Positions 28,276-42,178 of a stretch of DNA of 64,000 bases are shown here, one piece after another. The notes under the pieces were generated by a model that did not search any database, was not told where the DNA came from, and saw nothing but the letters and a program-made list of their open reading frames with translations. The stretch is from Dehalococcoidia bacterium (lineage in GTDB: Bacteria > Chloroflexota > Dehalococcoidia > Bin125). The stretch lies in the NCBI GenBank assembly GCA_965220315.1, contig CBDCPP010000002.1, positions 579,088 to 643,087 on the forward strand. The letters run 5' to 3'. The translations under genes were made by a program, and so were the position numbers. The stretch's first letter is position 1; the number at the start of each line of letters is the position of its first letter.

Positions 28276-28590
28276 GCGGGTAGCGCTGAGGGCCTTGCGT
28301 CGCTAGTCGACAGTGAGGGGCCTCAGCCGTACCGAGGGCGCGAGGTTCAGCCCGCCTACGCGAGTAGCGTTCCTTGGCGAGCCGCTTCGCGGGGTTCGAT
28401 CAGTTTGGCACCGACTCCGCATGGGCTGAGCTGGTATGTGGTCCTCTTTAGCTATATCGACGGCTGTCACCCATTTGTCACCTAACTCGTCGACAGGAAG
28501 TATTGAAGGCAGGGACTTGTAGCACCGTTCCCTCGAGAAACGTGGGCGGAAGCGGAATCGTTGACACGCGCCGCCACCCAACAGATCCGC

Positions 28591-28657
28591 TGCGGCGGTC
28601 TTGAAAACCGCTAGACGCCTGAGTGTCTCGGGGGTTCGAATCCTTCCCCCTCCGCCA
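28591..28657 (+). repeat. direct repeat: 3' portion of tRNA-Ser from the anticodon stem to CCA (att-like partial copy C)
   Basis: TGCGGCGGTCTTGAAAACCGCTAGACGCCTGAGTGTCTCGGGGGTTCGAATCCTTCCCCCTCCGCCA matches tRNA positions 26-90 with about 6 mismatches. The 5' half is replaced by unrelated sequence, although TATTGAAGGCA from the tRNA upstream region persists at about 28512. Confidence 0.7.
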
Positions 28658-28845
28658 CACCAATGCAAGAAAACACTTATTTTATAGGGATAGTGACCAA
28701 TCTACGGTAAGTCATTATCACTTAGTATATCCCGCACGATTTGGCAGCCAGTGCGCCTCCTGGTTCTGGGCGACCGCAGCGCGCAGGTAAACGACGCCAC
28801 GCACAAAAGTGCTTGTTTGCTCGGGAACATCGGCCCACCGGCGGA

Positions 28846-29415
28846 TTAGATGAACATCTGCGGGAGCATGTCCCAACTCAGGATCCGGGCCACATCCCCG
28901 GAGAGCTTGGGGTCTGCGCTTTCCCCCGGCACATCCCAGAAGACGGTGCCGGGGTCCCCGTCGCCGATATCGGCCAGCAGCAACGCCAGCGCCTCGCTGC
29001 GGCGCTCGGGGGCGATCTCGAAGTAGTCACAGAGACTCGTCAGCGGGATCCCGAGCCGCGAGCGGCCGTTCACCCGCACCCGCACCCCCTCGAGGTTGCC
29101 GTGCTTCACATGCCAGGAGATGCTCTGCGGCGTCATGTCGACGAGGCGCGCCACCTGATCGCGGGAGATCACCACCTTCTGCTCGGGGGAGCTACCGGTG
29201 GAGGCGATCACCACCTCCTGCTCGGGGGAGTGGAAGGTGGGGGAGATGCGCGCGTCCGGCCGCGAGCCGTTCCACTTTTGGTTCGCAAGGAGTACCAGCA
29301 ACATGTTATCGCCCACGATGGCCGCGATCGCTTCCGCGGGGACGTGGTGCTCCAACGCGAGCGTCACCAGCCGCTCGATCTTTTCCTGCAGTCCTTCGTC
29401 TTCGGTATCGGCCAT
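28846..29415 (-). CDS. excisionase-family (MerR-like) HTH DNA-binding protein
   Basis: The C-terminal VISRDQVARLVDMTPQSISWHVKHGNLEGVRVRVNGRSRLGIPLTSLCDYF matches excisionase / HTH_17 domains. It sits next to the att-like tRNA fragment and downstream of the terminase genes. The start is taken as the internal ATG (ORF-track start 29469). Confidence 0.5.
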   Translation of the reverse strand: MADTEDEGLQEKIERLVTLALEHHVPAEAIAAIVGDNMLLVLLANQKWNGSRPDARISPTFHSPEQEVVIASTGSSPEQKVVISRDQVARLVDMTPQSISWHVKHGNLEGVRVRVNGRSRLGIPLTSLCDYFEIAPERRSEALALLLADIGDGDPGTVFWDVPGESADPKLSGDVARILSWDMLPQMFI

Positions 29416-29646
29416 CGTCCTCGCCCTGCCTGCCCTGGCTCGCCAACCACAAAAAAGCGATCCTCGCAATACCCTAGCGTAGTGGCCATGACAAATGGGC
29501 CGTGACGGGCTTTTATGGAATAAGCGCCTCAGCGCCCTCAGAATCGGGCTGGCGAGCCTGAACGGCCGCTGACGCCCCCCCCAAAAAAAGGCGGGGAATG
29601 CGGTCCTTGGGGCCGTCCGCCGTCGCCAACGCCCACTGACCGCATC

Positions 29647-31299
29647 CTAGACGGCCTCCGTGGCCAAGGGGTGGCCGTCGAGCGTTCCCACATGCACCCC
29701 GGGCGACGTCTCCATCTTGCGCAAAAAGGCCAGCACGTAGCGCCGCGTGTCCATGGCGTCGCCGTGCTGGTCGACGGTGCGGTTGGCGACGTACTTATCG
29801 CCCGTATTGGGGTTGCGCTGCAGGCGGCGCTTGTAGACGACGAACTCATGGCGCGAGTGCCGGCAGCGGCGGTCGATCGTGAACTTGTTGGCCTTGAGCT
29901 TCTCCGTCAGCAGCGTCCAGAGGGAGCGGTCGTTGTCGACCTTGCGCTCCACGTAGATCCCGTGCGGCGCCAGCTTCTGGGCGAGGGAGTAATTCATGGC
30001 CCCTTCGGAGGGATCGGGGCAGACGGCGAAGACGGGCGCGATGGCGTGCAGCTGCAGGACATAGGCCACGATCTCATCCAGGCCCACGGCATCCTTGCGA
30101 TAGAGCTCCCCGAATTGATGCAGGTGCCCGGTGCCGGAGACGCCATAGGGACAGACGGCCGTGGGGTCGCCGCCGCCGGCGCCGTAATCGATGCCGAAGA
30201 GCCGGATGCGGGCCTGCGACCAGCGGAAGGGCGGGTCGTGGGGATCGGTCGCCATGGTGCCGTCGACGTACTCCGGGTACCAAAGGGTGTTGTTCCCGCC
30301 CACGAAGGCATCGACAGCCGTCTTGGGGAACTCCTGCAGGAACTCGTACTCGGCCCCGATGTAGCCCTTCTTGCGGCCCTCCCACCAATCCCAGTTGATG
30401 GCGAAGCCGAGGCAGCCATGTTCCTCGTAGCCGGGCGCGACGCAGGGCCGGTCCTCCCAGGTTTCCATCGACCCATCCCCGCGGCGCCGCAGCCCGCCGC
30501 AGTCGGCGTGGGGCTGCAGGTGGATCCCGATCCACTTCCCCGCCTCGCGGTCATAGCGCCGCGGCCGCACCCACCAGGGGTACATGATGCCGTGCGTGCC
30601 GGGGATGAGGCCGTAGCGCGCCGCCCAGTAGCGGTTGGCGAAGAAATCGCCGATGTCGGTGATCTGCTCGGCGTTCTCGGGGATCTGCCCGCCGCTCGAG
30701 GTCGACACCTGAAAGAGCTGCTCGGCCTGGGGCTCGACGGCGGCGTAGGTTTCCTTGGCGTAGTTGTGCTTGGCGGCCTCATCCCAGAGCGCGATCTTGG
30801 TGGTATCGCCGCGGCCGGCGTCCTCGGTCGAGGGAAAGACATTGATTTCGCCGCCGCCCTTGATGTTGAGATCGAGCTGGGTGGGCGGCCGCTGCGGGGC
30901 CACCTGGATGTGCCCGGGCAGGTGGTCGTACATGTAGCGCTGCTTGCCATAGAGCTTCTTCGCCTCGCGCTCATTCTGCGAGAACTCCTGGTAGATCGCG
31001 CCCGGCTGGCCGTAGAGCACGTTCCAGAGAATGTAGCCGCCGATGTACCAGGACACGCCGATCTGCCGCCCCTTGAGGATGACGGCGCTGTGGCCGGCCG
31101 TCAGGATCTGGGGCAGCGTCCAGCCGGTGGGTTCGAAGATGGGATTGTCGAAGAAGGCCCAGTCCTCCATGAGCTGGGGCCCGGCCTCGCCCAGGATCTG
31201 CAGATGGTGCCGGAAAGCGCCGAAGGACCGCCGTGCGAAGGCCCGTTCGATGTCCTCGCCCGCCGCCAGGGCGACCTGGTCAACCAGCTTCCTTGCCAT
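29647..31299 (-). CDS. phage terminase large subunit (TerL; ATPase + nuclease)
   Basis: The ATG at 31299 has a GGAAGGA ribosome-binding site. The protein MARKLVDQV... has a Walker A-like ILKGRQIGVSW and a C-terminal nuclease region with conserved acidic residues. Length (about 550 aa) and architecture fit TerL. Confidence 0.75.
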   Translation of the reverse strand: MARKLVDQVALAAGEDIERAFARRSFGAFRHHLQILGEAGPQLMEDWAFFDNPIFEPTGWTLPQILTAGHSAVILKGRQIGVSWYIGGYILWNVLYGQPGAIYQEFSQNEREAKKLYGKQRYMYDHLPGHIQVAPQRPPTQLDLNIKGGGEINVFPSTEDAGRGDTTKIALWDEAAKHNYAKETYAAVEPQAEQLFQVSTSSGGQIPENAEQITDIGDFFANRYWAARYGLIPGTHGIMYPWWVRPRRYDREAGKWIGIHLQPHADCGGLRRRGDGSMETWEDRPCVAPGYEEHGCLGFAINWDWWEGRKKGYIGAEYEFLQEFPKTAVDAFVGGNNTLWYPEYVDGTMATDPHDPPFRWSQARIRLFGIDYGAGGGDPTAVCPYGVSGTGHLHQFGELYRKDAVGLDEIVAYVLQLHAIAPVFAVCPDPSEGAMNYSLAQKLAPHGIYVERKVDNDRSLWTLLTEKLKANKFTIDRRCRHSRHEFVVYKRRLQRNPNTGDKYVANRTVDQHGDAMDTRRYVLAFLRKMETSPGVHVGTLDGHPLATEAV

Positions 31300-31861
31300 C
31301 GTGTGTTTCCTTCCAGGCGGCCCATTCCTTATCCAGCGCCATCGTCTCCTTGGCCACCGCGCGCCAGCGCTCCTCCAGATGCTTGGGACAGGTCGCGAAA
31401 TCCCGCGTCGGCGCTCCGCCCGCGCCCACGACGGGCAACGCGGCCGCTTCCTCATCGAGCTCTTTCCGCTTGTCGATCAGGATCGCCAGGCTCGTGCTCA
31501 TGCTCTTCACCTCGAGCGCGGTGATGTCGTCCCGGGCCTCCCACCGCTCGAGCTGCCGCTCGATCAATCCCACTTCCCGCCACAGGATGTCCGCGATCTT
31601 TGACCGCAGCCGATCGCGCAACTCGTGGACCGCCCGTTTCCCACCCCGGCGCAGATCCGGCGGCGGCCGCACATCCTTCCGCTTCGCCCGCGGCTTCTCG
31701 CCCCGACGCTTCCGCGCCAGCGCGATGATGTGCCGGACTTGTTCGTAGCTCAGCCCCACCGCGTCCGCGATCGCCTGGTACGTCACCCGTTGGCCCGGCG
31801 GAGCGAACCACATCGCCTCCACCTGCTCCCGGTCCGCAGGCGTCACTTGTCGCTCGGGCAT
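31280..31861 (-). CDS. putative terminase small subunit / HTH DNA-binding protein
   Basis: The 193-aa protein has a sigma-70 region-4-like HTH (RVTYQAIADAVGLSYEQVRHIIALARKR) followed by a charged coiled region. It lies immediately upstream of terL and overlaps it by about 20 nt. Confidence 0.5.
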   Translation of the reverse strand: MPERQVTPADREQVEAMWFAPPGQRVTYQAIADAVGLSYEQVRHIIALARKRRGEKPRAKRKDVRPPPDLRRGGKRAVHELRDRLRSKIADILWREVGLIERQLERWEARDDITALEVKSMSTSLAILIDKRKELDEEAAALPVVGAGGAPTRDFATCPKHLEERWRAVAKETMALDKEWAAWKETHDGKEAG

Positions 31862-31891
31862 CCGCCCTTTCGGTACTTAGCTACACACTGT

Positions 31892-32000
31892 GCTGGCAGT
31901 CTAGCTAATCCGGAGTTCCCAATGGATCTTCAGACGATCAGTTGCGCCCCAGCCCACGATTGCGGCCGGCCGTGGAGGAAGTCCTCCCGCGCACGCTGGT
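31892..32000. repeat. about 110-bp imperfect direct repeat, copy 1 (duplicated gene 3' end + downstream regulatory region, immediately upstream of terS)
   Basis: GCTGGCAGTCTAGCTAATCCGGAGTTCCCAATGGATCTTCAGACGATCAGTTGCGCCCCAGCCCACGATTGCGGCCGGCCGTGGAGGAAGTCCTCCCG closely matches 32411-32530. Confidence 0.7.
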
Positions 32001-32056
32001 CATCGTGCTGCAGGGTATGCGCTGATCGGTGCCGTGTCGTTCTCCTTCGGGCTGCA

Positions 32057-32365
32057 TCAAAAATCAGTAATGTCGACGTGCTTCGTGGGTCGATACGATG
32101 CATCGGCATCCGCGATCGACTGGCAGTACTCGCACTCGGTTCCTTCGAGGACGGCCCGGACGATGATTTGGTGGTCGGGGCCAACCCCTTCCCAGGTGTG
32201 ACCGATCGCTGGATAGTCACGGCTCGGAGACAGGCCAAATTGATCCTCGGTGGACAGGGGCACAATTCCCCCTGCTCGCTCGGGTCCAGCAATCCGACCA
32301 AGCACCATGTGATAGTGGGACACGCCCGGCACGTAGGTGACAGCTACGGTCACTGCCTCGGTCAT
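32057..32365 (-). CDS. hypothetical small protein (102 aa), phage-associated
   Basis: MTEAVTVAVTYVPGVSHYHMVLGRIAGPERAGG... has an AGGAGG ribosome-binding site and balanced composition. A duplicated C-terminal module from the 32449 gene family is appended downstream in another frame. Confidence 0.4.
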   Translation of the reverse strand: MTEAVTVAVTYVPGVSHYHMVLGRIAGPERAGGIVPLSTEDQFGLSPSRDYPAIGHTWEGVGPDHQIIVRAVLEGTECEYCQSIADADASYRPTKHVDITDF

Positions 32366-32410
32366 AGCGGGCCTCCTAGTTGTTCTTGAGGTAGCCGGAC
32401 GTCTCAATGC

Positions 32411-32530
32411 GCTGGCAGTTTAGCTGATCCGGGTTCCCCAATGAATCTTCAGACGATCAGTTCCGCCCCGGCCCAGGCTTGCAGCCGGCCGTGGAGGAAG
32501 TCCTCCCGTGCGCGGTCCTCGTCGTAGGGC
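32411..32530. repeat. about 110-bp imperfect direct repeat, copy 2
   Basis: It closely matches 31892-32000. It comprises the last ~22 codons of the 32449-32703 ORF (DRAREDFLHGRLQAWAGAELIV, stop) plus about 45 nt of downstream non-coding sequence. Confidence 0.7.
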
Positions 32531-32703
32531 AGGGTGTGCGTCGAGACCCGCACGCGCTGCCCGCGGGGATAGTCGACGTAGAAGCTCGAGAGCCGCCCGT
32601 GCCAATCCCGGCTGCACTTGATCCGCCGCGCGTCATTGACGTCCTTGCGCACGGCCCGCAGGGCCCGCATGAGGTTCACCGCGGGATCCACGCCCGCGGT
32701 CAC
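32449..32703 (-). CDS. hypothetical small protein (84 aa), phage-associated
   Basis: MTAGVDPAVNLMRALRAVRKDVNDARRIKCSRDWHGRLSSFYVDYPRGQRVRVSTHTLPYDEDRAREDFLHGRLQAWAGAELIV. Its C-terminus and 3' flank are duplicated at 31892-32000. Confidence 0.4.
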   Translation of the reverse strand: MTAGVDPAVNLMRALRAVRKDVNDARRIKCSRDWHGRLSSFYVDYPRGQRVRVSTHTLPYDEDRAREDFLHGRLQAWAGAELIV

Positions 32704-32851
32704 GCGGAGCAGAGGGGGCAGCAGGCGCTGATCATGGGGGCATGGTAGCGAGGAAACAAGCGCATGCGCGAGGATCAGAGAGGAATCTCGTGATCCCGAA
32801 GTGCCCGATGGTCTACGCTGTAGAAAGTGACGCGTAGCGCGCTGGTATCAG

Positions 32852-33220
32852 TTAAGGGGTGGCAGGTGGATCGTCCTCTTCGTCGGAGTCTGAGCCCGCC
32901 CCGGGGAAGCCTTGCTCGCGCAAGCGTTGCCCGAGATCCTGGTAGTGCGCGCGAATGCGAAGACCAGCCTCCAGCGAGACTTGCAAGCTCCGAATTCCGG
33001 TCCGCGTTCGCGCGGTCGTTTCATCGTCTCCTGACAGGTCAGATAGTGCCTCTTCAACAGCTGCATCAAAGCGGTCCAGAAACGCTTGCAGATCTAGTGG
33101 CTGCAATGGATCAAGACCTTCGACGACAGCTGCGACAAAGATCCCCACGCTCTCAACCTGCAGGTCCTCCGGCTTAAAGTTACCGAGGTCCCAGTCCGAC
33201 CCCTGTCCTTCCTCGCTCAT
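32852..33220 (-). CDS. hypothetical acidic protein
   Basis: The internal start gives MSEEGQGSDWDLGNFKPEDLQVESVGIFVAAVVEGL... within ORF 32852-33364. Composition is acidic and there is no recognisable domain. Confidence 0.35.
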   Translation of the reverse strand: MSEEGQGSDWDLGNFKPEDLQVESVGIFVAAVVEGLDPLQPLDLQAFLDRFDAAVEEALSDLSGDDETTARTRTGIRSLQVSLEAGLRIRAHYQDLGQRLREQGFPGAGSDSDEEDDPPATP

Positions 33221-33231
33221 GGGGCCTCCGT

Positions 33232-33789
33232 TCACCGCGCACAGGCGGGCAACGGCTTCCCGACGCGCGCCTGTGCGAAGCAGGCCCCCGTCCTCTGTTG
33301 AGAATCCGCGATGACGTCGGGGAGCTCCCGGTTGTCGGTAAACGCGGTGATCGGTTCCTTCCATTCGGCCGTGCCGCCCTGCGGGGTCACGTAGCGCAGG
33401 ACATAGATCAGCTCGAACCAGTTGTATCCGTCGTCGCCATCGTCGACTCGTCTCTCGACGACGACCCAGTCGTGGGACGGCGGCTCGGCCTGCTCCAGGC
33501 GCCGCGTGGCGACCCGTGCGCTGGCGGCATCGCTCCGGGCCGCGCTGATCTCGCTCCGGAGATCGTCGATCACGGCCTGCATGGTGGCGACGTCCGCCTG
33601 GATCCCGCTGGGATCGTAGCGCTCGAGGGCTTCCACAGCCGTGAGGCGCGTCTCGACGCTTTGGATCCGAGTCCCGATGTCAACGCGGCGCTCCTGCGCA
33701 AAGCGATACGTCAAGAAGATCGCGGCCACCAGAGCCCCGACCACGACCACGCCGACGAGCGGGACCAGGAACGGACGCCACCGACGCAT
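33232..33789 (-). CDS. membrane-anchored hypothetical protein (single N-terminal TM helix)
   Basis: MRRWRPFLVPLVGVVVVGALVAAIFLTY gives an N-in TM anchor. It is followed by a coiled, charged ectodomain. Confidence 0.45.
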   Translation of the reverse strand: MRRWRPFLVPLVGVVVVGALVAAIFLTYRFAQERRVDIGTRIQSVETRLTAVEALERYDPSGIQADVATMQAVIDDLRSEISAARSDAASARVATRRLEQAEPPSHDWVVVERRVDDGDDGYNWFELIYVLRYVTPQGGTAEWKEPITAFTDNRELPDVIADSQQRTGACFAQARVGKPLPACAR

Positions 33790-34038
33790 AGGTGCTCCCT
33801 TGCAACATGAGCGGAACTCGTTGCCACACCAGTCCTGCGAACGGAGCTACAAGGGAGCGTGGAGGCTCCGCTCGGTTCCATTCGCAGGGTGTGGCGGCAG
33901 GGACGCTACGGGATAAGTGAGGTGCCGTCTAGGCCCAGACGGTTTCAACGTAACCCGCGCCAGTGCTAGGCTCACGCGGGCCCGCGACCCTGGATGCCAG
34001 CGCCCGCGTAGCAGCCCCCTCTCAGAAAAGAGACGAGT

Positions 34039-34471
34039 AGTGAAACTTCGATTTATCTGGTTAGCCGAGAAGATCGAACCCCGACCCGATGGGAAGATCA
34101 ACATGACAGGGGTCTTCAATACGCTAAAGTTTTCAGCGTTTCCCGCGACTTATCCCCAGATTGATTGTCTACTCGAATTGTCTGTGCCACTGGAAGAACT
34201 AGAGGAAAGGAAGACGGATCATCAGATCCGTCTCACTCTGACCAACCCCGCCGGTCAAGTGGTCCAGCAGACACCGGACGACGTCGGCTGGTTTCAACTC
34301 CCCAGCCGTGCGGAAGGGCCTACGCCAAGACCCGGGGTGTTCGTGGTTCCGGCAGCACTACAACTACAGTTTCGGAACCTTCGCTTCGATCGCCCTGGGG
34401 ACTTCGCCCTGCGCGTAGATCTCGACAACACAAAGCTCTGGGAGACACCGGTTCTGATTGAACAGGCGTAA
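34039..34471 (+). CDS. hypothetical protein
   Basis: A GTG at about 34039 follows a GAGACGAG site. The 144-aa product is VKLRFIWLAEKIEPRPDGKINMTGVFNTLKF..., with no family recognised. Confidence 0.4.
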
Positions 34472-34534
34472 AGGCAAACGCCGCGTAGATTATGGGCGGG
34501 GGGGCTGCTGCGTCCACAGAGGCCTCTCTTCGGC

Positions 34535-34774
34535 TCACCCGGCCCCGGGTGACAACACCCGCTGGCCCGAGTATCCTACCCAGGCCGCCGCCACCTCGCG
34601 TGCTCGAAGAAGGCCCCGCCCCCAGCGGGGTCGTTTGCATTCTACCACCTTGATCGCCCGCCGCGCATTCCCGGCGTACTTCTTGCAAGTGGCCGAACAA
34701 TACTTCTTCAGTCGCCAACCCTGAAACAGACCACCGCATTGCTTGCAGCTCTGCGTCACTTCTCGCTCGGCCAT
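34535..34774 (-). CDS. small zinc-ribbon protein (CxxC ... CxxxC)
   Basis: MAEREVTQSCKQCGGLFQGWRLKKYCSATCKKYAGN has two Cys pairs. It is convergent with the upstream gene. Confidence 0.35.
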   Translation of the reverse strand: MAEREVTQSCKQCGGLFQGWRLKKYCSATCKKYAGNARRAIKVVECKRPRWGRGLLRAREVAAAWVGYSGQRVLSPGAG

Positions 34775-34823
34775 GCCCTTAGCTTAGCCCAGCCCCCCAA
34801 GACCTCCATAAGCTCCAGGGATG

Positions 34824-34842
34824 GGGGGGGGGGGGGGGGGGG
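34824..34842. repeat. G19 homopolymer tract
   Basis: AGGGATG followed by 19 consecutive G, then ATTTTGGG. It lies in a 1.3 kb stretch (34780-36140) with no convincing ORF. Confidence 0.9.
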
Positions 34843-35093
34843 ATTTTGGGCAGAGGATCCCCGATCGGATCCGGAAAAACCACCCGATATGGGATCTGTA
34901 TCGAGAAGATGCTCCGCTCTTGTTAGGAGAAAGTTCGGCCTGCCGGCTGGCTGGCGAGGACGAGTCGGTCCCGGCAGGCCTCCTTTTGGGGTGAGGACAG
35001 ACGAACGGAGCCATTCGTGCTCTCTGGCCTACCCCACCAGAGAAGAGCCACTAGCCGAAGGGGCGACCACAGTAGCAGTTGGGTAGTCCCATT

Positions 35094-35167
35094 CCCTATC
35101 GGCTCCCTATCCCATCCCTATCCAAATCCCAACCCCCCCCCCAGGGTTATATGTCCCACTCCCTATC
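35094..35167. promoter_or_regulatory. iteron-like array: four CCCTATC repeats (three at exact 11-bp spacing, the fourth about four helical turns away) flanking a C10 tract (35133-35142)
   Basis: CCCTATC occurs at 35094, 35105, 35116 and 35161. The 11-bp phasing places the sites on one DNA face. A TGTGTACACA palindrome lies at 35288-35297 and AT-rich sequence lies downstream. Confidence 0.45.
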
Positions 35168-36214
35168 CCATGCCCTGGTCGCAGACGCAGAGAGGGCCTG
35201 CGGCGACGACTCCAAACGTACGGTCAATGCGGAAGAGCCCGGCCCATGGTCCATGGTGGGCCATCGGATCTCTTAAGACCCTACAGTGTGTACACATTGA
35301 GTACTTAATAAGGAAAGGATGGGCCGGGATGGACCATGGGCCACCGAGACACTCCCGGTTCCGGCCGCGGCCACACGCCGCATCGATCGCGGCGGTCGCC
35401 GCGCCGGGAGAAGGGATGCGCCGCCGCGCGTTCGTCGGGAAGGCCCGCTAGCGACCCGGGCGATCCCGCCGCCCACGCCGCCGCGCAGGGAGCAGTGGCC
35501 GCGCTGCGCGCGACTGTCTCTTTCGCCCCCGTTCCCGCCGAGCACGCCGCTCGCTGAACCGCCACGGCGCTGACCTAAGCACGGCCGGGGAGCGCCGCAA
35601 CACCTGGAACGGGGGCAGGCGCGGCCTGGGGCGTGAGGCCCTCCATCCGCGGCCGCGATCGCCGCGCGCCACGCGATCCGCCCGCGCCGGCCGCCGCGCC
35701 TGCCCCCTGTCGGTTCAGCGTGGCAGGCCCAGCGCCGCATCAAGGGGCGAGCAGGCAGCCCGCTCAAAAATCGGCGCGAAGAACGCACGGTAGGCCTGCC
35801 CCCTGGACGCGGCGCATCTGGGAGGCGGCGGCGGTGGCCATGCCTCCTGCTATGGGTTTGCGCTCCATGTGCACCCTGCGCAGCCCGCTCCGCGACAACC
35901 CATCTCCGAACGCGACAGCCCCTCGCCCAGCGCAGGCGCAAGCATGTTCGGCTGCGCTGGAGGACCAGCGCTGCCGATGCTCGCCTGCACGTCCTGGTCA
36001 AGGGTGCGGCTACGCCCACGCCGGAGGACCGGCGCGCCCTTGACCAGGACGGGACGGAAACCTGCCTGCCTGGTTGCCCGATCGTATACCCCGGCCTCAA
36101 GAGTGAAGGCTACGCCCAGGCCGGAGGACCGGCCTGCTCTTGACCCCGGAGTCATGGGGACAAGCGACCAGGCCGGCGACGGGAGCCGGAGGGATAAGGG
36201 AAAGGGACCCAACC

Positions 36215-37351
36215 ATGACCGACCGCCAACACCACGAGGACGACTGCAGCGAATGCGGAGGCACCGGCATCGCACAAGAGGCCGCCATCCCAGTGCCCGG
36301 ACCCGATGGCTACTGCCAGCCCCGCCAGGGCACTGGCCAGACCAGGGAGGACCCAGTGACCACGACCGACGACACGCCAACCATCAACCTCCACCGCGAC
36401 TGCTGCCCCGACGCAGCCATCGAGAACGACCCACCCGATCCGGACACGCACCTGGCCTACGAGGTCGACCCGCCTGAGGTCCAAGCCACGGGAATCATCC
36501 TCAAGTTCGACACCGATGGGACCTACCAACGCATCGAGCAGACGGGCCCCCTTGGCCTCGAGCTGATGCAAAAGCTCGTCGACGGCTACATCGAGCGCGT
36601 CATCACCCCCAGCTTCGACCTTTGGGTGAACGAAGAGGGGCTCATGCGCGACGACTTCGAGCCTAACATCGGGGCCAGCTACCTACTCGGCAAGCACGGC
36701 GCCCCCAACACCATCATCCTCGGACCCGCCTTCATCGCCGCCAGCAACGACGATGGAGAGAGCGTGCCCGCACCCACCGAGGTGATCGACATCTGCCTCG
36801 CCAGCCTCCACCAACTCGGCTACACGCAGGGAACGGAGAGCGCTGGCTGCGACGAGTGCGGCGGACTCTGCGACAACGACCACCGGCCCATCGCAGGAGG
36901 GAGCGGTGCATCCCCCGAAGGCACGGCCACCGTCGCCATATCAGCCGAGGTCCTCATCGTCGTCCCGCTCGAGCGCGGCGAACGCGCTGCCCTCGCCCTC
37001 AACAACAACGCTGGCAGCGACGCCTGGTCCCGCGTCGTCGAGAACGCCTACACCCGTCTCTCCATACAGATCGACGGCGTCCACCAGCCCGCCGAAGACG
37101 TTGCCTGGGGCCAGCCCTTTGTTGTAGCAAGCCCGCCACCCATCGCCGGAGGCGCGGCCATCACACTCCCCTCCAACGTCACGATGGACCAGGTCCTGGC
37201 CCTGGTCGAGGCCGACGACAACCTGGGGCTCTGCACCCACTGCGGCGCCGAGGCCAGCGGCATCGAGCCGGACGCCAACGCCTACGCCTGCGAGGACTGC
37301 GGCCGCAGCGCCGTCACCGGCGCCGAAGGCCTGCTGCTGGCCCTGGTCTAG
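36215..37351 (+). CDS. DUF3846-like phage/plasmid protein with two Cys-rich zinc-ribbon ends; contains two copies of the PIAGG linker motif
   Basis: The internal ATG at 36215 follows AAGGGAAAGGGA. The protein has an LKFDTDGTYQRIEQTGPLGLELMQKLVDGYIERV ... DLWVNEEGL (DUF3846-like) core. The motifs HRPIAGGSGAS (36886) and PPIAGGAAI (37141) precede C-terminal modules. The DUF assignment is from memory of the family, not a search. Confidence 0.55.
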   Translation: MTDRQHHEDDCSECGGTGIAQEAAIPVPGPDGYCQPRQGTGQTREDPVTTTDDTPTINLHRDCCPDAAIENDPPDPDTHLAYEVDPPEVQATGIILKFDTDGTYQRIEQTGPLGLELMQKLVDGYIERVITPSFDLWVNEEGLMRDDFEPNIGASYLLGKHGAPNTIILGPAFIAASNDDGESVPAPTEVIDICLASLHQLGYTQGTESAGCDECGGLCDNDHRPIAGGSGASPEGTATVAISAEVLIVVPLERGERAALALNNNAGSDAWSRVVENAYTRLSIQIDGVHQPAEDVAWGQPFVVASPPPIAGGAAITLPSNVTMDQVLALVEADDNLGLCTHCGAEASGIEPDANAYACEDCGRSAVTGAEGLLLALV

Positions 37352-37598
37352 CCGTGCGCACCTGCGACCACTGCCAGGCAGTGATGCGGGGCGCGCGCCG
37401 CCGCTACGGCTGCGACTACTGCCGCGCTCAGCTCTGCAGTAAATGCTACGACGCCCACCGCTTCACCCCCAGCCATCGCCCGCGTCCCTGTCCGCAGGCG
37501 GCGCGGGCCCAGCCCGCGTAGCCCCTTCCATCCACCCAGCACGCACAGAACAGCCCCGGCGCCGGCCGGGGCTGTTGCGTTAAGCGAAGGACACTCCC

Positions 37599-40500
37599 AT
37601 GACCACGATCACACGACTCGACACCCCCTGGGGACCCGCGCAGACCATCACCGAGCTCGCGCCCGGTGTCCGCATCGTCACCACCGCCAGCCACGGCGGC
37701 CTCCAGATCGAGGAGCCGCAATGGCTGGAGCTGCCCGCCGCCGTGCGGCGCACGTTCACCCGGCTGCACCCCAAGGGCTGGGCCGAGGAGGACTGCGAGA
37801 TGGCGATCGCCCTGGTCCTGCTGGGCCTGGCCGAGCACCCCTACTTCGGCGGCCCCGACTCCAAGGTCCGCCGCGCGGCGATCGGCATCGCCAACTTCTT
37901 CGAGACCTACCACCCCTGCCGGGAGCCCCTCGCGGCCTTCAAGCCCATCGCCGGGGGCAGCGGCGCCGAGGCGTGCGCGCACCGGCACGTGCTCTCCCTC
38001 CGGTGTCCCGACTGCGGGCAGACCATGCACCGCACGATCGCCGAGGTCGTCCGCTGCCACCCCTGCCGGCAAGCCGATGGTCTCGGCCACGCCCGCGTGA
38101 CGCAGGTCGAGCGCACCGAGGAAGCCTGGGACGAGCAGCTCCGCCAGCAAGCCAGCGCGCCCGTCCTGGCGGTCGCCCGCGAGCACTACGCCTCCCCCGC
38201 CCAGACGCCCTATCACTGCGAGGAGCTGGCCGCGCGGGAGCAGGAGCTCTACCACTGCACGACCCGCGAGCTCGAGCAGATCTGCCTCGACCTGGACATC
38301 CCGATCCGGACGCCCGAGGGCTGGAGCATCCCCACCGAGCCCGCCTACGTCGCCCACAACGAACAGCGCATCCACCTCGCCCAGGCGAGGGAGCGCGCCT
38401 ACCTCGAGTACTACAAGACCACCGTCGGCGGCCCGCCGATCGCCGGAGGGAGCGGAGAGATCGACACCATGCGTATCACATTCACCCCCAGTTGCAGCTG
38501 CGGCGCGACATCGCCCGGCTTCGACCGCCAAGACGAGGCCCGGCTGTGGGCCCTCCACCACATCGAGGAGCGGCACCTGAACGACCCCGAGCCCGAGCCC
38601 TTGCACGAATACCAGATCCACGTCCGCGAGACCGTGATCATGGACCGCTGCTACGGAGTCCGCGCCGCCAACGAAGAGCAGGCCAAGGACAACAACCAAG
38701 CCGACTGGGAGTGGCTCAACGAATCCGAAGTCGACACCACCGCCACCCAAGTCACCGAAGTGCGGCACCTGAGCGGAGCCGGCTGCGCAGGGTGCACCGC
38801 CGAGCAGAAGCCCATAGCGGGAGGCAGCGGCGAAGAGCAACCGATAGTCCCATGCGTCGCCCCCACCGACAGCGACGACGAGACCGAGCTACTCCACGAG
38901 TTCACGGTCGACGCCAACGACACCATCATCAGCGACCGCGTCTACAGCGTCTTCGCCCACAGCGAGGACGACATTCGGCAAGAGCTCGGCGAGTGGGATT
39001 GCTCGAGCCAAGGCGACGAGACGCTCCTCTCCCGCGAGCTGACCAGCATCGACCATTACCCCCCAGGCTGCCGCGCCTGCCAGGAAGCGCAGATGCTGCA
39101 GCCCATCGGGGGCGGCGCCGTCCGCAACCCCAAGCTCAAGTGGACCGCGCGCGGCCGCGGCGGCAGCCGGGAGTTCCGCGCCCTGCCCTACGTCATCTTC
39201 CACCCCTATGACGAGTCCCGCATGGGCGCCGGCGGCGGGGGCGGCATCCCCGTCTCCGACCAGTGGCGGCTCCACGTCGAGGGCGAGCCCGTTCGCTACT
39301 CGCGCAAGGATGGCTGGAGCGGGAAGAGTGAGACCCTCGGCACCTTCACCATGCTAGCCGCGGCCAAGGCCCGGGCCCAGGCCCACGCCGACGCCCGCTC
39401 CATCGAGCACCAGCAGCTCAACGAACAGCTCGGCCTCAAGCCCATCGCGGGAGGGAGCAGCGAAGGGGACTCCCCCTTCGTCCAGTGCTGGCCCATCGCC
39501 GAGTACTTCGCTGCCCTCCCCGAGGAGGCATTGCGGCAGCAGATAGGAACCTACAGCCCCGGCAAGAACTTCAAGCCGTGCTGCGTCGGCGCCCACCTGG
39601 CGTTCTTCCTCGGGACGGAGCTCCTCACGCGCAATCTGCTCGCCCCCTACCACGACTTCCTCGATGGCGAGAAGGCCCTTGCTGAGCAGCTCAACCTCGA
39701 CCCGCACACCGTCAGCACCCTGCTCTACGCAGCCGGAGCCGACACCAACCCCTTCGGCTATCGCCAGTGGCCCGTGCCGCCGGCGCAGGTGTTCACCAAC
39801 CTCCTGACGATCGAGAAGATCCCGCGATCACACGAAGCGGGACCCATGCACTCCGCCGCCATCGATGCGTACAAGCAGAGCCAAGCGCTCAAACCGATCG
39901 CGGGCGGGAGTGGGGAAGAGGAACCCATCCCCGGCTGCGAATGGTGCGATCCCGATCCGGATCCGGATAGCCCGAATCCACCCGACGCCATCGCCTCCGG
40001 CGCACAGCGCCTCGAAGAAGCAAAGAACGCCCTCTCGGACGTCTTCCACGTCATGGACGAGCACGCCCTCGACAACAAGCGCGAACCATGGCTGCACCAG
40101 CTATGGGACGCCCGTCAAACCATCGACTGCATCCAAGAGAACGCACCGGGCTGGGAGGAGCCGACCATCAAGCCCATCGCGGGAGGGAGCGGCGAGGAGG
40201 AACCCCCGCGGCTCACCACCCGCGAGCGCAAGGAGCGCCGCCTCAAGCGACGCCTGGACTGGGCCGAGAGCCGCGAGCACAAAGCCGAGCAGACCCGCAA
40301 GGCGGCCGATGCCGCCGTCGCCGGGATCCCATTCGGTCAACCCATCCTCGTGGGACACCACAGCGAGAAGCGCCACCGCCGCGCCATCGACCGGCACGAC
40401 CGCAACTTCTTGAAGACGGGCGAGCACTTGCACATGGCGGACCGCCACCGCCGCCGGGCGGCCGGGATTCAGGAGCAGCTGAACCGCTCCATCTACTCGG

Positions 40501-40847
40501 ACGACGACGACGCGATCCCCGCCTTGCAGCAGCGCATCGCCGAGCTCGAGGCCCGGCGCACGCGCATGAAGGCCATCAACCAGTGGCTGACCAAGCACGG
40601 CGGGATCCCCCGGCGGCGGGTGCCGCGCGGCTCGGAGCGGGCCCTGTTCGAGAAGGCCGGCGAGGCGATCAAGCGCTGCCACGCCGAGCTGACGCTGACC
40701 CAGAAGGAGGGCCAAGAGATCGTCCAAGCGCTCCAGTTCAACGGCGTGCTCGGCTACCCCAGCTACGCCCTCTCCAACCTATCCGCCAACATCCGCCGCC
40801 AAGTCAAGCGGCTCGAGCGGCTGCAGAAGGAGGCCCCCGATGCCTAG
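37599..40847 (+). CDS. 1082-aa multi-module protein: seven unrelated small modules (zinc ribbons, DUF3560-like C-terminal module, etc.) joined by a recurring KPIAGGSGEE linker
   Basis: A GAAGGA site precedes the ATG at 37599. Linker instances lie at 37941, 38434, 38808, 39108 (degenerate), 39438, 39891 and 40170. The last module (about 210 aa, ...GQPILVGHHSEKRHRRAIDRHDRNFLKTGEHLHMADRHRRRAAG...) resembles DUF3560. Confidence 0.65.
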   Translation: MTTITRLDTPWGPAQTITELAPGVRIVTTASHGGLQIEEPQWLELPAAVRRTFTRLHPKGWAEEDCEMAIALVLLGLAEHPYFGGPDSKVRRAAIGIANFFETYHPCREPLAAFKPIAGGSGAEACAHRHVLSLRCPDCGQTMHRTIAEVVRCHPCRQADGLGHARVTQVERTEEAWDEQLRQQASAPVLAVAREHYASPAQTPYHCEELAAREQELYHCTTRELEQICLDLDIPIRTPEGWSIPTEPAYVAHNEQRIHLAQARERAYLEYYKTTVGGPPIAGGSGEIDTMRITFTPSCSCGATSPGFDRQDEARLWALHHIEERHLNDPEPEPLHEYQIHVRETVIMDRCYGVRAANEEQAKDNNQADWEWLNESEVDTTATQVTEVRHLSGAGCAGCTAEQKPIAGGSGEEQPIVPCVAPTDSDDETELLHEFTVDANDTIISDRVYSVFAHSEDDIRQELGEWDCSSQGDETLLSRELTSIDHYPPGCRACQEAQMLQPIGGGAVRNPKLKWTARGRGGSREFRALPYVIFHPYDESRMGAGGGGGIPVSDQWRLHVEGEPVRYSRKDGWSGKSETLGTFTMLAAAKARAQAHADARSIEHQQLNEQLGLKPIAGGSSEGDSPFVQCWPIAEYFAALPEEALRQQIGTYSPGKNFKPCCVGAHLAFFLGTELLTRNLLAPYHDFLDGEKALAEQLNLDPHTVSTLLYAAGADTNPFGYRQWPVPPAQVFTNLLTIEKIPRSHEAGPMHSAAIDAYKQSQALKPIAGGSGEEEPIPGCEWCDPDPDPDSPNPPDAIASGAQRLEEAKNALSDVFHVMDEHALDNKREPWLHQLWDARQTIDCIQENAPGWEEPTIKPIAGGSGEEEPPRLTTRERKERRLKRRLDWAESREHKAEQTRKAADAAVAGIPFGQPILVGHHSEKRHRRAIDRHDRNFLKTGEHLHMADRHRRRAAGIQEQLNRSIYSDDDDAIPALQQRIAELEARRTRMKAINQWLTKHGGIPRRRVPRGSERALFEKAGEAIKRCHAELTLTQKEGQEIVQALQFNGVLGYPSYALSNLSANIRRQVKRLERLQKEAPDA

Positions 40848-41650: not shown

Positions 41651-42178
41651 TGAACAACCGCAGCACCCACGCCACTACCAGGACCCGAGGACCGCCAAGC
41701 TCCCTCTCCCTCCCTCGATAAGAAACAAAGCCCAGCCCTACCCGCGCCCAGCCAACTTAAGACCGTGGGCCTCGCACCCCGGCCGCGATTCCCCGGGGAA
41801 ATCCCCCAGGGGCAGACGGTTTCGCGCGCGGAGGGCCCGCTCAGGGGGGCGGTTTCGGGCGATCGGGCCCCGATCACGCCGCCGGCGCCCGCCGCGGGCA
41901 TCCACAGCAGGGGCCTTGTGGGACACGCGATCGAGGGCGTGGGGGCCCGCCAGCCACCGCTGAGCGGCTCCTGGAGGGAAATTCGGGGGTTCGAGGCTGG
42001 AGGAGCGGCCGATATCCGCCTTTCCGACCGGCGGATGTGCGTGCGCCTCAGGCCCAGTGTCAAGTAGCTTTACACGTGATCCATGCCGCCGCGTGTGGCG
42101 AAATCGAACGGGCGCCCTGCGATCGAGGTTGCCAGCAGGAAAGCCTTCCGTACCATGTTTCCTGAAAACGGAGAGCCG

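What the first reader, a model, noticed from the sequence alone, without database searches (positions are those of the whole stretch)
34780..36140. 1.3 kb ORF-free stretch with G19 and C10 homopolymers and a helically phased CCCTATC array
There is no credible ORF; only Arg-rich GC-frame artefacts occur. It contains a 19-nt poly-G (34824-34842) and a 10-nt poly-C (35133-35142). Four CCCTATC motifs are present, three at exact 11-bp spacing, which places them on one DNA face. A TGTGTACACA palindrome and an AT-rich patch at 35280-35310 follow.

This combination is typical of origins, partition sites or packaging (pac/cos) regions of mobile elements and phages. G/C homopolymers of this length are also hypermutable and can form G-quadruplexes.

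The region sits between convergent or terminal small genes and the modular-protein operon.
Basis: seen in the sequence. Interest (0 to 1): 0.55.

Follow-up and report, generated by a model that had tools for sequence, protein, structure and literature searches.

The report
Two-part non-coding control region of island

Summary
The features are real. There is a G20 tract (34823-34842, not G19), a C10 tract, three CCCTATC at 11-bp spacing plus a fourth, and TGTGTACACA. There is no credible ORF between 34775 and 36214. The stretch is a divergent intergenic region of an island next to tRNA-Ser, and it has two parts.

Part A (34775-35232) holds G20, C10 and the array. It is only 47% identical to the one usable relative (L004). 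That relative has an interrupted polypurine tract and other short repeats there, but keeps a + strand terminator-like hairpin. Part A does not fold better than shuffles.

Part B (35233-36214) is 97.5% identical to L004 over its first 600 bp. It has higher GC than the island (0.71-0.77 against 0.66) and folds far better than shuffles (z -7 to -9; 18 other segments of the window give +0.5 to -3.5). It starts with a 102-bp palindrome and ends with two tandem Y-shaped hairpins that show compensatory changes. It abuts the ribosome-binding site of a DUF3846/DUF7007-DUF3560/methylase-helicase operon.

My best reading is a structured cis-regulatory leader that works like pLS20 EGeRS1, without sequence homology (confidence 0.4). 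No evidence supports an origin, partition site or packaging site. The mechanism and the active strand are unresolved.

The parts
34535..34774 (-). Left flanking gene: a 79-aa Zn-ribbon ORF (CxxC...YCSxxC) whose ATG lies 49 bp from the G20 tract. It defines the left edge of the intergenic region.
   Evidence: ORF list and translation. The N-terminal ~45 aa match a repeated Zn-ribbon motif in 15 proteins of a 1.8-billion-protein library (best E 2.7e-8). The gene caller on Logan contig L033 did not call it, so it is probable, not certain.
34823..34842 (.). G20 homopolymer (C20 on the - strand), part of a canonical G4 motif at 34818-34850.
   Evidence: Identical in Logan contig L033. L004 has the interrupted polypurine tract GGGAAGGGGTGGGGGAGAAAAAAAGAGAGGGAGAAGGGA at the equivalent place.
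34937..34990 (+). Terminator-like hairpin (17-bp GC stem, -35 kcal/mol) followed by CTCCTTTTGGGG.
   Evidence: Fold. L004 has a hairpin with an entirely different stem sequence at the same place, followed by the conserved tail CTCTTTTGGGGTCAGGGACAG. The terminator scan flags it in L004.
35087..35167 (+). C-rich short-repeat array: CCCTATC at 35094, 35105 and 35116 (11-bp phase) and at 35161, flanking the C10 tract. It includes a canonical G4 motif on the - strand at 35155-35175.
   Evidence: Not conserved in L004, which has TCCCTTAG x2 and ACGTCA x2 at the equivalent distance from the boundary.
35133..35142 (.). C10 homopolymer. It forms a 21-nt, 81% complementary inverted repeat with the 3' end of G20 (GGGGGGGGGGGGGGATTTTGG / CCAAATCCCAACCCCCCCCCC).
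   Evidence: A run of this length is expected by chance about 0.4 times per window.
35233..35233 (.). Sharp homology boundary. To its left identity to L004 is 47%; from here rightwards it is 97.5-100%.
   Evidence: Logan contig L033 ends at 35262, which is 35233 + 29. That is consistent with a k=31 assembly-graph branch (k assumed) if a second left flank joins here in sample ERR13605531 (inference).
35241..35342 (.). 102-bp imperfect palindrome (outer arms are 14 bp perfect) centred on TGTGTACACA, with an AT-rich centre. It forms a hairpin of -53 kcal/mol.
   Evidence: z -4.2. The only substitutions against L004 in the first 360 bp of Part B cluster at 35304-35318, in its inner part.
35359..35829 (.). 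GC-rich core (77% GC) made of nested and long-range helices: 35359-35409, 35436-35468, 35483-35526, 35546-35563 with 35709-35728, 35611-35625 with 35693-35707 (15 bp perfect), and 35732-35747 with 35800-35815.
   Evidence: L004 is 100% identical over 35319-35592. The same helices appear in an independent fold of L004.
35842..35896 (-). Inverted copy (~83%) of an internal coding segment of the downstream modular gene (38773-38826, encoding ...CAGCTAEQKPIAGGSG). It lies in the 52-nt insertion relative to L004.
35932..35988 (+). Hairpin with a 7-bp apical stem and an AGGA loop (35961-35964). GGAGGA resembles a ribosome-binding site.
   Evidence: z -5.0. Identical in L004.
35990..36051 (+). Y-shaped hairpin module A. 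The outer stem is GTCCTGGTCAAGGGTG / CGCCCTTGACCAGGAC. It contains two mini-hairpins, GGC-NNN-GCC and GCCGG-AGGA-CCGGC.
   Evidence: z -7.6. Three pairs carry compensatory double changes against L004.
36082..36159 (+). Y-shaped hairpin module B, a tandem copy of A 100 nt downstream. It is enclosed by a further helix, 36068-36077 with 36164-36173.
   Evidence: repeat family D1; five or more compensated pairs. The covariance model finds only these two copies per element.
36181..36217 (+). Purine-rich ribosome-binding region (GGGAGCCGGAGGGATAAGGGAAAGGG) and the ATG of the DUF3846 gene at 36215. This is the first gene of the rightward operon.
   Evidence: (gene call at the same start).

Best explanation
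The 1.44-kb stretch is the divergent, non-coding control region of an integrated mobile island. It has two parts.

Part B (35233-36214) is a long, GC-rich, hairpin-dense cis-regulatory leader directly in front of the ribosome-binding site of an establishment or anti-restriction-like operon (DUF3846, DUF7007/DUF3560, Mrr-helicase-methylase). I infer that it works like the EGeRS1 sequences of pLS20-family plasmids. Folded as a single strand (the + strand transcript is my preferred guess), it insulates the operon from read-through and keeps it silent until a specific signal arrives. The two Y-shaped modules and the three GGAGGA/AGGA-loop hairpins next to the start codon are the likely effector part.

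Part A (34775-35232) is a rapidly evolving spacer. It carries the start region of the leftward genes, a slippage-expanded polypurine/G tract, a + strand terminator-like hairpin that would stop a short rightward transcript, and a short phased C-rich repeat array. The array may be the variant-specific binding site of a regulator.

Shown: the anatomy, the conservation pattern, the exceptional folding, the compensatory changes in modules A and B, and the gene context. Inferred: transcription, the active strand, the read-through block, and any role of G20 or the array.
For: - Non-coding: no Pfam hits, and indels of 1, 2, 1 and 52 nt against L004.
- Two-part conservation against L004: 47% in Part A; 97.5% over 35233-35840, with 274 nt at 100%; 83% over 35926-36214. 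The adjacent DUF3846 gene is only 75% identical at the nucleotide level.
- Folding of Part B: z -6.9 (+ strand RNA), -7.9 (- strand RNA) and -7.8 (- strand DNA). My own run gave z -8.9, against +0.5 to -3.5 for 18 other 982-nt segments of the same window. The L004 copy gives z -6.7 with the same main helices. Part A gives z -1 to -2.
- Covariation in 35926-36214: 10 pairs changed on both sides, 4 kept through wobble, none broken in the consensus structure. Slid controls give 0-3.
- GC content: 0.71 for Part B (0.77 core) against 0.657 for the island.
- No sigma-70-like promoter is predicted in the region in either element.
- Gene context: DUF3560 matches 299 plasmids, 166 of them conjugative. 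Some matches are annotated as ArdC-domain proteins, and one lies beside acrF3 anti-CRISPR genes.
- Published analogue: EGeRS1 is 400-750 bp, GC-richer than its plasmid and dense in inverted repeats. It sits immediately upstream of the RBS of ardC and other establishment operons, has no constitutive promoter and blocks read-through in one orientation only (PMC8708921). I measured pLS20 EGeRS1-B with the same tools: GC 0.51 against 0.377, z -8.4.
- Terminator-like hairpin in Part A: it is kept in L004 with a completely different stem but the same T-tract tail.
Against: - Only one relative covers the region, so covariation rests on two sequences.
- With the window-only MFE as an unbiased structure, substitutions are not depleted in paired positions. 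Many predicted pairs are 'broken': about 10 in 35233-35840 with none compensated, and 11-13 in 35926-36214 against 9 compensated. Some are restored in L004 by register shifts. Solid covariation is therefore limited to modules A and B.
- The near-identity of 35233-35840 may reflect recent recombination between co-occurring elements rather than selection.
- Both strands fold equally well, and compensatory changes equally preserve DNA palindromes. RNA, ssDNA and duplex protein sites cannot be told apart.
- There is no sequence similarity to EGeRS1 and only one copy in the window, whereas pLS20 has five.
- No ArdC, relaxase or T4SS gene is in the window, so the 'establishment' label rests on domain association only.
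- The ribosome-binding site itself is not sequestered in the predicted structure.
Confidence: 0.4

Rival explanations
1. Part B acts in single-stranded DNA, as a single-strand promoter or priming site of the Frpo/ssi type. When the element enters a new cell as ssDNA, the hairpins would mimic duplex DNA. They would then drive early transcription of the anti-restriction operon, or prime complementary-strand synthesis.
For: - The - strand, which is the template for the operon, folds as DNA with z -7.8.
- The operon carries domains typical of conjugative-plasmid establishment and anti-defence regions.
- Frpo-type promoters precede such genes (PMC11541004).
- TTGAC(C/A) is conserved in the 3' arm of both Y-modules in both elements.
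- No duplex sigma-70 promoter is predicted.
Against: - No -10-like hexamer lies 16-18 nt after the TTGACC boxes (read directly).
- The region is three times longer than Frpo (about 330 nt) and is multi-branched rather than one long hairpin.
- The window holds no relaxase, oriT or T4SS gene, and it does hold a terminase gene, which points to dsDNA packaging.
- There are no nucleotide matches in the plasmid collection, which should include Frpo-bearing F-like plasmids; I made no direct comparison with the known Frpo/ssi sequences.
- The authors of the EGeRS1 study rejected this mechanism for the closest analogue.
Confidence: 0.15
2. The region has no dedicated function beyond spacing and termination. 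It would be a recombination-homogenised, GC-rich palindromic spacer between two divergently transcribed modules. The hairpins would be insulating terminators or REP-like by-products. G20 and the 11-bp array would be products of replication slippage.
For: - The identity profile is a step function (47% to 100% at 35233), which is typical of a recombination junction.
- The Logan contig ends exactly 29 nt beyond that junction, as expected if a second sequence joins there in the same sample (inference).
- Substitutions are not depleted in paired positions of the single-sequence MFE.
- An inverted scrap of a downstream gene sits inside the region.
- G20 replaces an interrupted polypurine tract in L004.
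Against: - Nine to ten fully compensated pairs, with the Y-shaped architecture kept in four module copies.
- A folding z-score far outside the range of 18 control segments.
- The same quantitative signature as the experimentally active EGeRS1-B.
- The position flush against the ribosome-binding site of a long operon.
Confidence: 0.2
3. This is an iteron-type replication origin. The phased CCCTATC repeats would bind a variant-specific initiator, and the AT-rich centre of the adjacent 102-bp palindrome would be the unwinding element. G20, when transcribed, could stabilise an R-loop primer.
For: - Three exactly phased repeats plus a fourth.
- The repeats differ between relatives, as iterons do when the initiator differs.
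- An AT-rich palindromic centre lies 120-190 bp away.
- Short phased iterons are known from satellite origins (my own knowledge of the P4 and SaPI origins, not checked here).
Against: - Pfam, PHROGs and NCBIfam recognise no Rep, primase or initiator among the neighbours.
- The repeats have only a 7-bp core and only four copies.
- The AT-rich patch is about 30 nt long.
- Part A shows no other conserved origin feature. The conserved part is GC-rich, the opposite of a typical origin.
Confidence: 0.1
4. This is a packaging (pac/cos) site or a partition site for the island.
For: A terminase large subunit (PHROG 2, E 3.9e-15) and a TerS-like HTH protein lie 3-5 kb to the left in the leftward gene string. 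The symmetric TGTGTACACA could in principle be a nicking site.
Against: - The distance to the TerS-like gene start (31861) is 3.4 kb.
- L004 keeps the palindrome and all of Part B. At the syntenic position it has a single 291-aa HTH gene instead of the terminase module.
- No ParA, ParB or ParR-like gene was found.
Confidence: 0.05
5. The region encodes one or more free-standing non-coding RNAs. One would be a short + strand sRNA running from the G tract to the terminator-like hairpin (about 34843-34990). Another, or the alternative, would be a large structured RNA covering Part B.
For: - The terminator-like hairpin is conserved in position, with a changed stem.
- Small conserved blocks lie between the G tract and the hairpin.
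- Part B folds exceptionally well and has no ORF.
Against: - No Rfam family matches, even at E up to 10.
- No promoter is predicted.
- The sRNA candidate folds only marginally better than shuffles (z -1.8).
- Part B runs straight into a ribosome-binding site, which fits a leader better than a separate gene.
Confidence: 0.1

Closest known systems
EGeRS1, the establishment gene regulatory sequences of pLS20-family conjugative plasmids of Bacillus (Val-Calvo et al. 2021, PMC8708921)
   Same: [quoted passage not shown]
- GC content clearly above that of the element.
- Many nested inverted repeats, with very stable predicted folds. Measured with the same tool, pLS20 EGeRS1-B gives z -8.4 and this region gives -6.9 to -8.9.
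- No recognisable vegetative promoter.
- Near-identical copies shared between different contexts.
- A divergent gene a few hundred bp upstream.
   Different: - No nucleotide similarity.
- About 980 bp rather than 400-750 bp.
- One copy in this 64-kb window rather than four or five per plasmid.
- The host is a high-GC unknown bacterium and the element is integrated next to a tRNA and carries a terminase.
- The most conserved part here is the 5' 600 bp, whereas in EGeRS1 it is the 3' 325 nt.
- The read-through block has not been tested here.
Frpo/ssi single-strand promoters of F and ColIb-P9 leading regions (Masai & Arai 1997; Samuel et al. 2024, PMC11541004)
   Same: A hairpin-forming non-coding sequence upstream of anti-defence or establishment genes. 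The folded strand could be the template strand of the operon.
   Different: - Frpo is one ~330-nt hairpin with -35 and -10 boxes in the stem. Here there are many helices over ~1 kb and no -10 box.
- No oriT or relaxase is in view.
- No nucleotide matches in the plasmid collection (not compared directly with Frpo/ssi sequences).
Phase-variable homopolymeric tracts of contingency loci (for example the poly-G/poly-C promoter tracts of Neisseria and Bordetella; from my own knowledge)
   Same: A long G/C homopolymer lies just upstream (49 bp) of a gene start, in a divergent promoter region. A tract of 20 nt is expected to slip readily.
   Different: No length variation was observed: the independent assembly also has G20. 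The relative has an interrupted polypurine tract instead. The promoter has not been mapped.
Iteron arrays of plasmid and phage-satellite origins, and 11-bp ParR centromere repeats (parC of R1; from my own knowledge)
   Same: Short direct repeats with an exact 11-bp (one helical turn) phase, differing between related elements.
   Different: There are only 3 + 1 copies with a 7-bp core. No Rep or ParR/ParM partner gene was recognised. An unrelated scan shows that the same phased motif occurs as a simple tandem repeat in 28 viral contigs.

Membership tests
EGeRS1 (pLS20-family establishment gene regulatory sequences) | Nucleotide similarity to the EGeRS1 copies of pLS20 or pBS72 | tested here: not met
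   blastn (word 11) of 34400-36400 against the plasmid collection, which holds pLS20 NC_015148, gave no match. A direct blastn (word 7) against pLS20 also gave no match.
EGeRS1 (pLS20-family establishment gene regulatory sequences) | Lies immediately upstream of the RBS of an establishment or anti-restriction operon | tested here: inconclusive
   It ends at the RBS/ATG of the DUF3846 gene. The operon carries DUF3560, DUF7007 and an Mrr/helicase/N6-MTase giant protein. DUF3560 occurs mostly on conjugative plasmids, sometimes annotated with an ArdC domain or next to acr genes. No ArdC itself was found and no functional data exist.
EGeRS1 (pLS20-family establishment gene regulatory sequences) | GC content well above the element mean, with dense inverted repeats that give very stable folds | tested here: met
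   GC is 0.713 (core 0.771) against 0.657 for the island. Fold z-scores are -6.9 to -8.9. pLS20 EGeRS1-B has GC 0.51 against 0.377 and z -8.4.
EGeRS1 (pLS20-family establishment gene regulatory sequences) | Several near-identical copies in front of different operons of one element | tested here: not met
   There is a single copy in the 64-kb window. The leader of the next large gene (41655-42082) is not structured (z +0.4). A copy 97.5% identical over its first 600 bp, with a different left flank, exists in L004, and by inference in sample ERR13605531.
EGeRS1 (pLS20-family establishment gene regulatory sequences) | No constitutive promoter, and an orientation-dependent block of read-through transcription | not testable with these tools
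   Only a consensus scan was possible. It predicts no sigma-70-like promoter in the region in the window or in L004.
Frpo/ssi single-strand promoter | A long hairpin carrying -35 and -10 hexamers at promoter spacing in its stem | tested here: not met
   TTGACC lies in the 3' arm of modules A and B, but no -10-like hexamer follows 16-18 nt downstream (read). The promoter scan is negative.
Frpo/ssi single-strand promoter | Lies in the leading region next to oriT, with the genes templated by the transferred strand | not testable with these tools
   No relaxase, oriT or T4SS gene was recognised in the window.
Iteron-type replication origin | Phased direct repeats plus an adjacent cognate initiator gene | tested here: not met
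   The repeats are present. No Rep, primase or initiator was recognised among the neighbours by Pfam, PHROGs or NCBIfam.
Phage pac/cos site | Adjacent to the small-terminase gene and co-inherited with the terminase | tested here: not met
   The TerS-like gene starts 3.4 kb away. L004 keeps Part B while having a single 291-aa HTH gene in place of window 29470-34780, which includes TerL.
Phase-variable homopolymeric switch | Tract length differs between reads, clones or strains | tested here: inconclusive
   G20 is identical in the Logan contig, possibly from the same sample. The relative L004 has an interrupted purine tract instead. Read-level data were not available.
Any Rfam RNA family | A covariance-model match | tested here: not met
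   No match at gathering score anywhere in the window except the tRNA. In 34300-36400 only chance-level matches (E 0.2 or higher) appear, all to unrelated miRNA, lncRNA and sRNA models.

The most novel reading that the evidence does not exclude
Part B would be a previously undescribed class of about 1-kb structured cis-regulatory element, the high-GC counterpart of the mechanistically unsolved EGeRS1. It would gate the early anti-defence or establishment operon of integrative elements. Its tandem Y-shaped modules would present GGAGGA/AGGA loops as the sensor or effector, for example for a CsrA-like protein, for ribosomes, or for an element-encoded antiterminator. The neighbouring G20 tract would act as a slippage-driven switch for the divergent promoter.
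Probability: 0.2. Interest if true: 0.65.

Novelty: new variant of a known kind. Interest (0 to 1): 0.42.

Why it matters
How mobile elements switch on anti-restriction and establishment genes quickly but only briefly is understood for very few systems: Frpo in F-like plasmids and repressor circuits in some others. The EGeRS1 type has been described only in Bacillus plasmids, and its mechanism is unknown.

A second, sequence-unrelated example in a high-GC integrated element would suggest that long, GC-rich hairpin leaders are a convergent solution. It would also offer compact conserved modules, the two Y-shaped hairpins with GGA loops, to test.

For the scan itself, the result is a caution. 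The eye-catching homopolymers and the phased motif sit in the least conserved part. The GC-rich stretch dismissed as ORF artefacts carries the signal.

Tried and rejected
- Rfam at gathering score and at E up to 10: nothing relevant.
- blastn of the region against the phage and plasmid collections: no match.
- Protein-anchored searches for relatives. The viral-contig scans and the metagenome-contig scan found nothing.
- DNA-pattern scans for the palindrome centre, its arm and the Y-module in viral and metagenome contigs: nothing.
- The phased CCCTATC pattern hit 28 viral contigs. None shares any other similarity with the window; they are simple tandem repeats.
- A concatenate of the region's spurious ORFs used as a protein query, to fish for contigs where gene callers had called them: nothing, probably swamped by low-complexity words.
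- Homology searches with the flanking proteins gave only three relatives. One of them (P0003, on a 1.5-Mb NCBI contig) could not be located.
- Coding hypotheses rejected. The 275-aa - strand ORF and the others have no family hits and are broken by indels in L004. The ATG-G20 57-aa ORF has only a marginal match to the L004 frame (E 0.011 for one comparison).
- About-100-nt periodicity of Part B: not supported.
- Strand assignment from G-U pairs: undecided.
- Fold z-scores in 250-nt windows were unremarkable, because the windows cut the long-range helices. The signal appears at full length.
- A second structured leader before the 1785-aa gene: rejected (z +0.4).
- Extra copies of the Y-module: none.
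- Host taxonomy could not be determined. The sample accessions are not in the paper library.
Full report
**1. The observation.**
- The poly-G tract is 20 nt long (34823-34842), one more than reported.
- C10 is at 35133-35142.
- CCCTATC is at 35094, 35105, 35116 and 35161.
- TGTGTACACA is at 35287-35296.

A first-order Markov model of the window expects 1.7e-6 G/C runs of 20 or more, but 0.38 runs of 10 or more. G20 is therefore far beyond chance and C10 is not; a G10 also occurs at 60627. The heptamer alone is not enriched (6 seen, 4.4 expected). The triple 11-bp-phased arrangement never appears in shuffles, and TRF reports it as an 11-bp tandem repeat.

An independent assembly, Logan contig L033, is 100% identical to window 27103-35262 and has the same G20 and C10. 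This argues against an assembler artefact. It may come from the same sample, so a sequencing artefact is not excluded.

**2. Coding potential and neighbours.** The stretch has no credible gene.
- Its ORFs are Arg/Pro/Ala-rich and hit no Pfam family.
- Indels of 1, 2, 1 and 52 nt relative to the homologous contig L004 break every frame.
- Gene callers call nothing conserved there.

To the left, on the - strand, lies a 79-aa Zn-ribbon ORF (34535-34774). Its N-terminal motif has weak but real homologues (best E 2.7e-8 in a 1.8-billion-protein library). Further left are small genes, a TerS-like HTH protein and a terminase large subunit (PHROG 2, E 3.9e-15).

To the right, on the + strand from 36215, lies an operon for three proteins:
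- a DUF3846 protein;
- a 1082-aa DUF7007/DUF3560 modular protein;
- a 1785-aa Mrr-nuclease/helicase/N6-methylase protein.

The region is therefore a 1.44-kb divergent intergenic region, not a convergent one. The island lies next to a tRNA-Ser (27041-27130) that has partial duplicate copies on both sides. DUF3560 matches 299 plasmids, 166 of them conjugative. Some matches are annotated as ArdC-domain proteins, and one lies beside acrF3 anti-CRISPR genes. The operon therefore looks like an establishment or anti-restriction operon. That label rests on domain association only.

**3. Relatives.** The element family is rare.
- Three protein searches gave only three related proteins.
- Scans of viral and metagenome contigs found nothing. 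The single genome-contig scan found only an unrelated locus.
- One relative, L004 (9.1 kb, ENA), covers the region.

Against L004 the region splits sharply at 35233:

| Segment | Identity to L004 |
|---|---|
| 34780-35232 | 47% |
| 35233-35840 | 97.5% (100% over 35319-35592) |
| 35926-36214 | 83% |
| DUF3846 gene | about 75% |
| Rest of the operon | about 93% |

Logan contig L033 stops at 35262, which is 29 nt past the boundary. If Logan's assembly graph uses k=31 (my assumption), this is where a contig would end if a second sequence with a different left flank joins at 35233 in that sample (inference).

L004 lacks the window's 29470-34780 segment, which includes the terminase. It has one 291-aa HTH gene there instead, but it keeps a homologue of the 207-aa gene beyond.

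It is homologous to L004 only in layout.
- Where the window has G20, L004 has the interrupted polypurine tract GGGAAGGGGTGGGGGAGAAAAAAAGAGAGGGAGAAGGGA.
- Both elements then have a strong hairpin with unrelated stem sequences, followed by the same tail CT(C)YTTTTGGGGT(G/C)AGGRACAG. This is the signature of a + strand intrinsic terminator or attenuator.
- Both then have short C-rich direct repeats 60-140 bp before the boundary. The repeats differ: CCCTATC in the window, TCCCTTAG and ACGTCA in L004.

Part A does not fold better than shuffles (z -1.95 and -1.0). Three of the window's five canonical G4 motifs lie in this intergenic region. G20 is therefore best read as a slippage-expanded version of an ancestral purine tract. 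The array is a variant-specific repeat, possibly a protein-binding site.

**5. Part B (35233-36214).** It begins with a 102-bp imperfect palindrome whose exact centre is TGTGTACACA (-53 kcal/mol, z -4.2). It continues as a 77%-GC core of nested and long-range helices.

It ends with one hairpin and two tandem Y-shaped modules spaced 100 nt apart.
- Each module has an outer stem built around GTCAAGGG/CCCTTGAC.
- Each holds a GGC-NNN-GCC mini-hairpin.
- Each holds a mini-hairpin whose loop is AGGA. GGAGGA resembles a ribosome-binding site.
- Directly after the modules comes the purine-rich ribosome-binding region of the DUF3846 gene.

Folding statistics:

| Sequence folded | z-score |
|---|---|
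| Part B, + strand RNA | -6.9 |
| Part B, - strand RNA | -7.9 |
| Part B, - strand DNA | -7.8 |
| Part B, my own shuffles | -8.9 |
| 18 other 982-nt segments of the window | +0.5 to -3.5 |
| L004 copy | -6.7, same main helices |

**6. How strong is the structural evidence?** In 35926-36214 the two-sequence consensus structure has 91 pairs. Ten are changed on both sides, four are kept through wobble and none is broken. Slid controls give 0-3.

That structure was derived from the same two sequences, so I ran an unbiased check with the window-only MFE.
- Substitutions are not depleted in paired positions.
- In 35926-36214 there are 9 compensated pairs, 2 kept through a one-sided change and 11-13 'broken'.
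- In 35233-35840 there are no compensated pairs and about 10 'broken'.

Some of the 'broken' pairs are restored in L004 by register shifts: the inner helix of the palindrome and the 35751-35799 helix. Solid covariation is limited to the two Y-modules.

The near-identity of the first 600 bp may be a recent recombination tract rather than selection. The folded strand cannot be assigned: the - strand gives 87 pairs with 11 compensated, and G-U counts follow base composition. Compensatory changes would equally preserve duplex palindromes.

**7. What it most likely is.** The closest described thing is EGeRS1 of the pLS20 plasmid family (PMC8708921). EGeRS1 has these properties:
- 400-750 bp long;
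- GC-richer than the plasmid and dense in inverted repeats;
- directly upstream of the RBS of ardC and other establishment operons;
- near-identical copies in front of several operons;
- no constitutive promoter;
- an orientation-dependent block of read-through;
- an unknown mechanism, which its authors argue is not a single-strand promoter.

I measured pLS20 EGeRS1-B with the same tools: GC 0.51 against 0.377, z -8.4, five copies. Part B shows the same signature: GC 0.71-0.77 against 0.657, z -7 to -9, a position flush against the RBS, and no predicted promoter. It has no sequence similarity to EGeRS1 and only one copy in the window. It works like EGeRS1, if the inference holds, but it is not a member of that family.

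My committed model is this. Part B is a structured leader that insulates and gates the anti-restriction-like operon. Part A is the variable divergent promoter and attenuator spacer. My confidence is 0.4.

**8. Rivals.**
- **Frpo/ssi-like single-strand promoter or priming site (0.15).** It fits the gene context and the DNA fold. It lacks a -10 box and any sign of conjugative transfer, and the structure is too long and too branched.
- **Functionless recombination-homogenised spacer (0.2).** It fits the step-like identity profile and the result. It does not fit the compensated Y-modules or the extreme fold score.
- **Iteron origin (0.1).** No initiator gene is present.
- **pac/cos or partition site (0.05).** It conflicts with the 3.4-kb distance to the TerS-like gene and with L004 keeping Part B without the terminase module.
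- **Free-standing RNAs (0.1).** No Rfam family matches and no promoter is predicted.

**9. Verdict.** The origin, partition and packaging reading is not supported. The homopolymers and the phased motif are real but lie in the non-conserved half.

The notable result is an unannotated, exceptionally structured ~1-kb leader that parallels a little-known class of plasmid regulatory sequences. The evidence is limited by having one relative and no expression data. I therefore rate interest as moderate (0.42).

Noticed in passing
window 25516-25560, 27041-27130, 28591-28657: The tRNA-Ser(TGA) gene has a 45-nt copy of its 5' half (98% identical) 1.5 kb upstream and a 67-nt copy of its 3' part (92.5%) 1.5 kb downstream. 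Each copy brackets a single gene: a 456-aa NucS-like/DNA_binding_1 protein on the - strand, and a 209-aa protein on the + strand. This looks like the scars of successive integrations at this tRNA. No recognisable integrase is in the window.
   Followed up: partly
window 36215-40847 (for example 38809-38832); L003, L004, P0003: The DUF3846 and DUF7007/DUF3560 proteins are chains of modules joined by a repeated linker, (K/P)PIAGGSGEE, with at least 7 copies. Relatives differ by whole-module insertions, deletions and fusions at these linkers. For example, P0003 fuses DUF3846 to DUF7007, and L004 splits the 1082-aa protein in two. The linker may be a recombination hotspot or a protease site. A ClpP-like SDH-type serine protease gene is at 48425-49276.
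   Followed up: partly
window 35842-35896 versus 38773-38826: A ~55-nt piece of the intergenic region is an inverted ~83% copy of a coding segment (linker plus flank) of the downstream modular gene. It sits inside the 52-nt insertion relative to L004. It is either a recombination scar or a potential long-range pairing partner within the same transcript.
   Followed up: partly
window 29470-34780 versus L004 845-2257: The terminase module and five small genes of the window are replaced in the relative by one 291-aa protein with a Sigma70_r4-like HTH. The genes on both sides stay homologous. This is a clean module swap in a mosaic element.
   Followed up: partly
loci L005-L032 (IMG/VR contigs): Arrays of CCCTATC at exact 11-bp spacing, mostly as GATACCCTATC tandem repeats of 3-6 units, occur in 28 otherwise unrelated viral contigs. 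This may be a recurrent phage repeat motif worth a separate look.
   Followed up: no
window 31886-32021 and 32405-32540: A 136-bp direct repeat (83% identical) lies among the small leftward genes upstream of the TerS-like gene.
   Followed up: no
window 41655-42082: A second ~430-bp non-coding, GC-rich stretch precedes the 1785-aa nuclease/helicase/methylase gene. It is not unusually structured (z +0.4). It contains a 12-nt match to the tRNA-Ser T-arm (41983-41994, TCGGGGGTTCGA).
   Followed up: partly
window 42083-47440: A 1785-aa protein combines Mrr-type nuclease, ResIII/SF2 helicase and N6-adenine methylase domains. From memory, not checked, this resembles the giant methylase-helicase antirestriction proteins of phage P1 (DarB) and of conjugative plasmids.
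   Followed up: no
window 60627-60636 and 29575-29582: Further homopolymers are present: G10 just upstream of or within the 5' region near the giant 2952-aa LRR/PKD/cadherin surface protein gene (51283-60141, - strand), and C8 between the 207-aa gene and the terminase large-subunit (TerL) gene.
   Followed up: no
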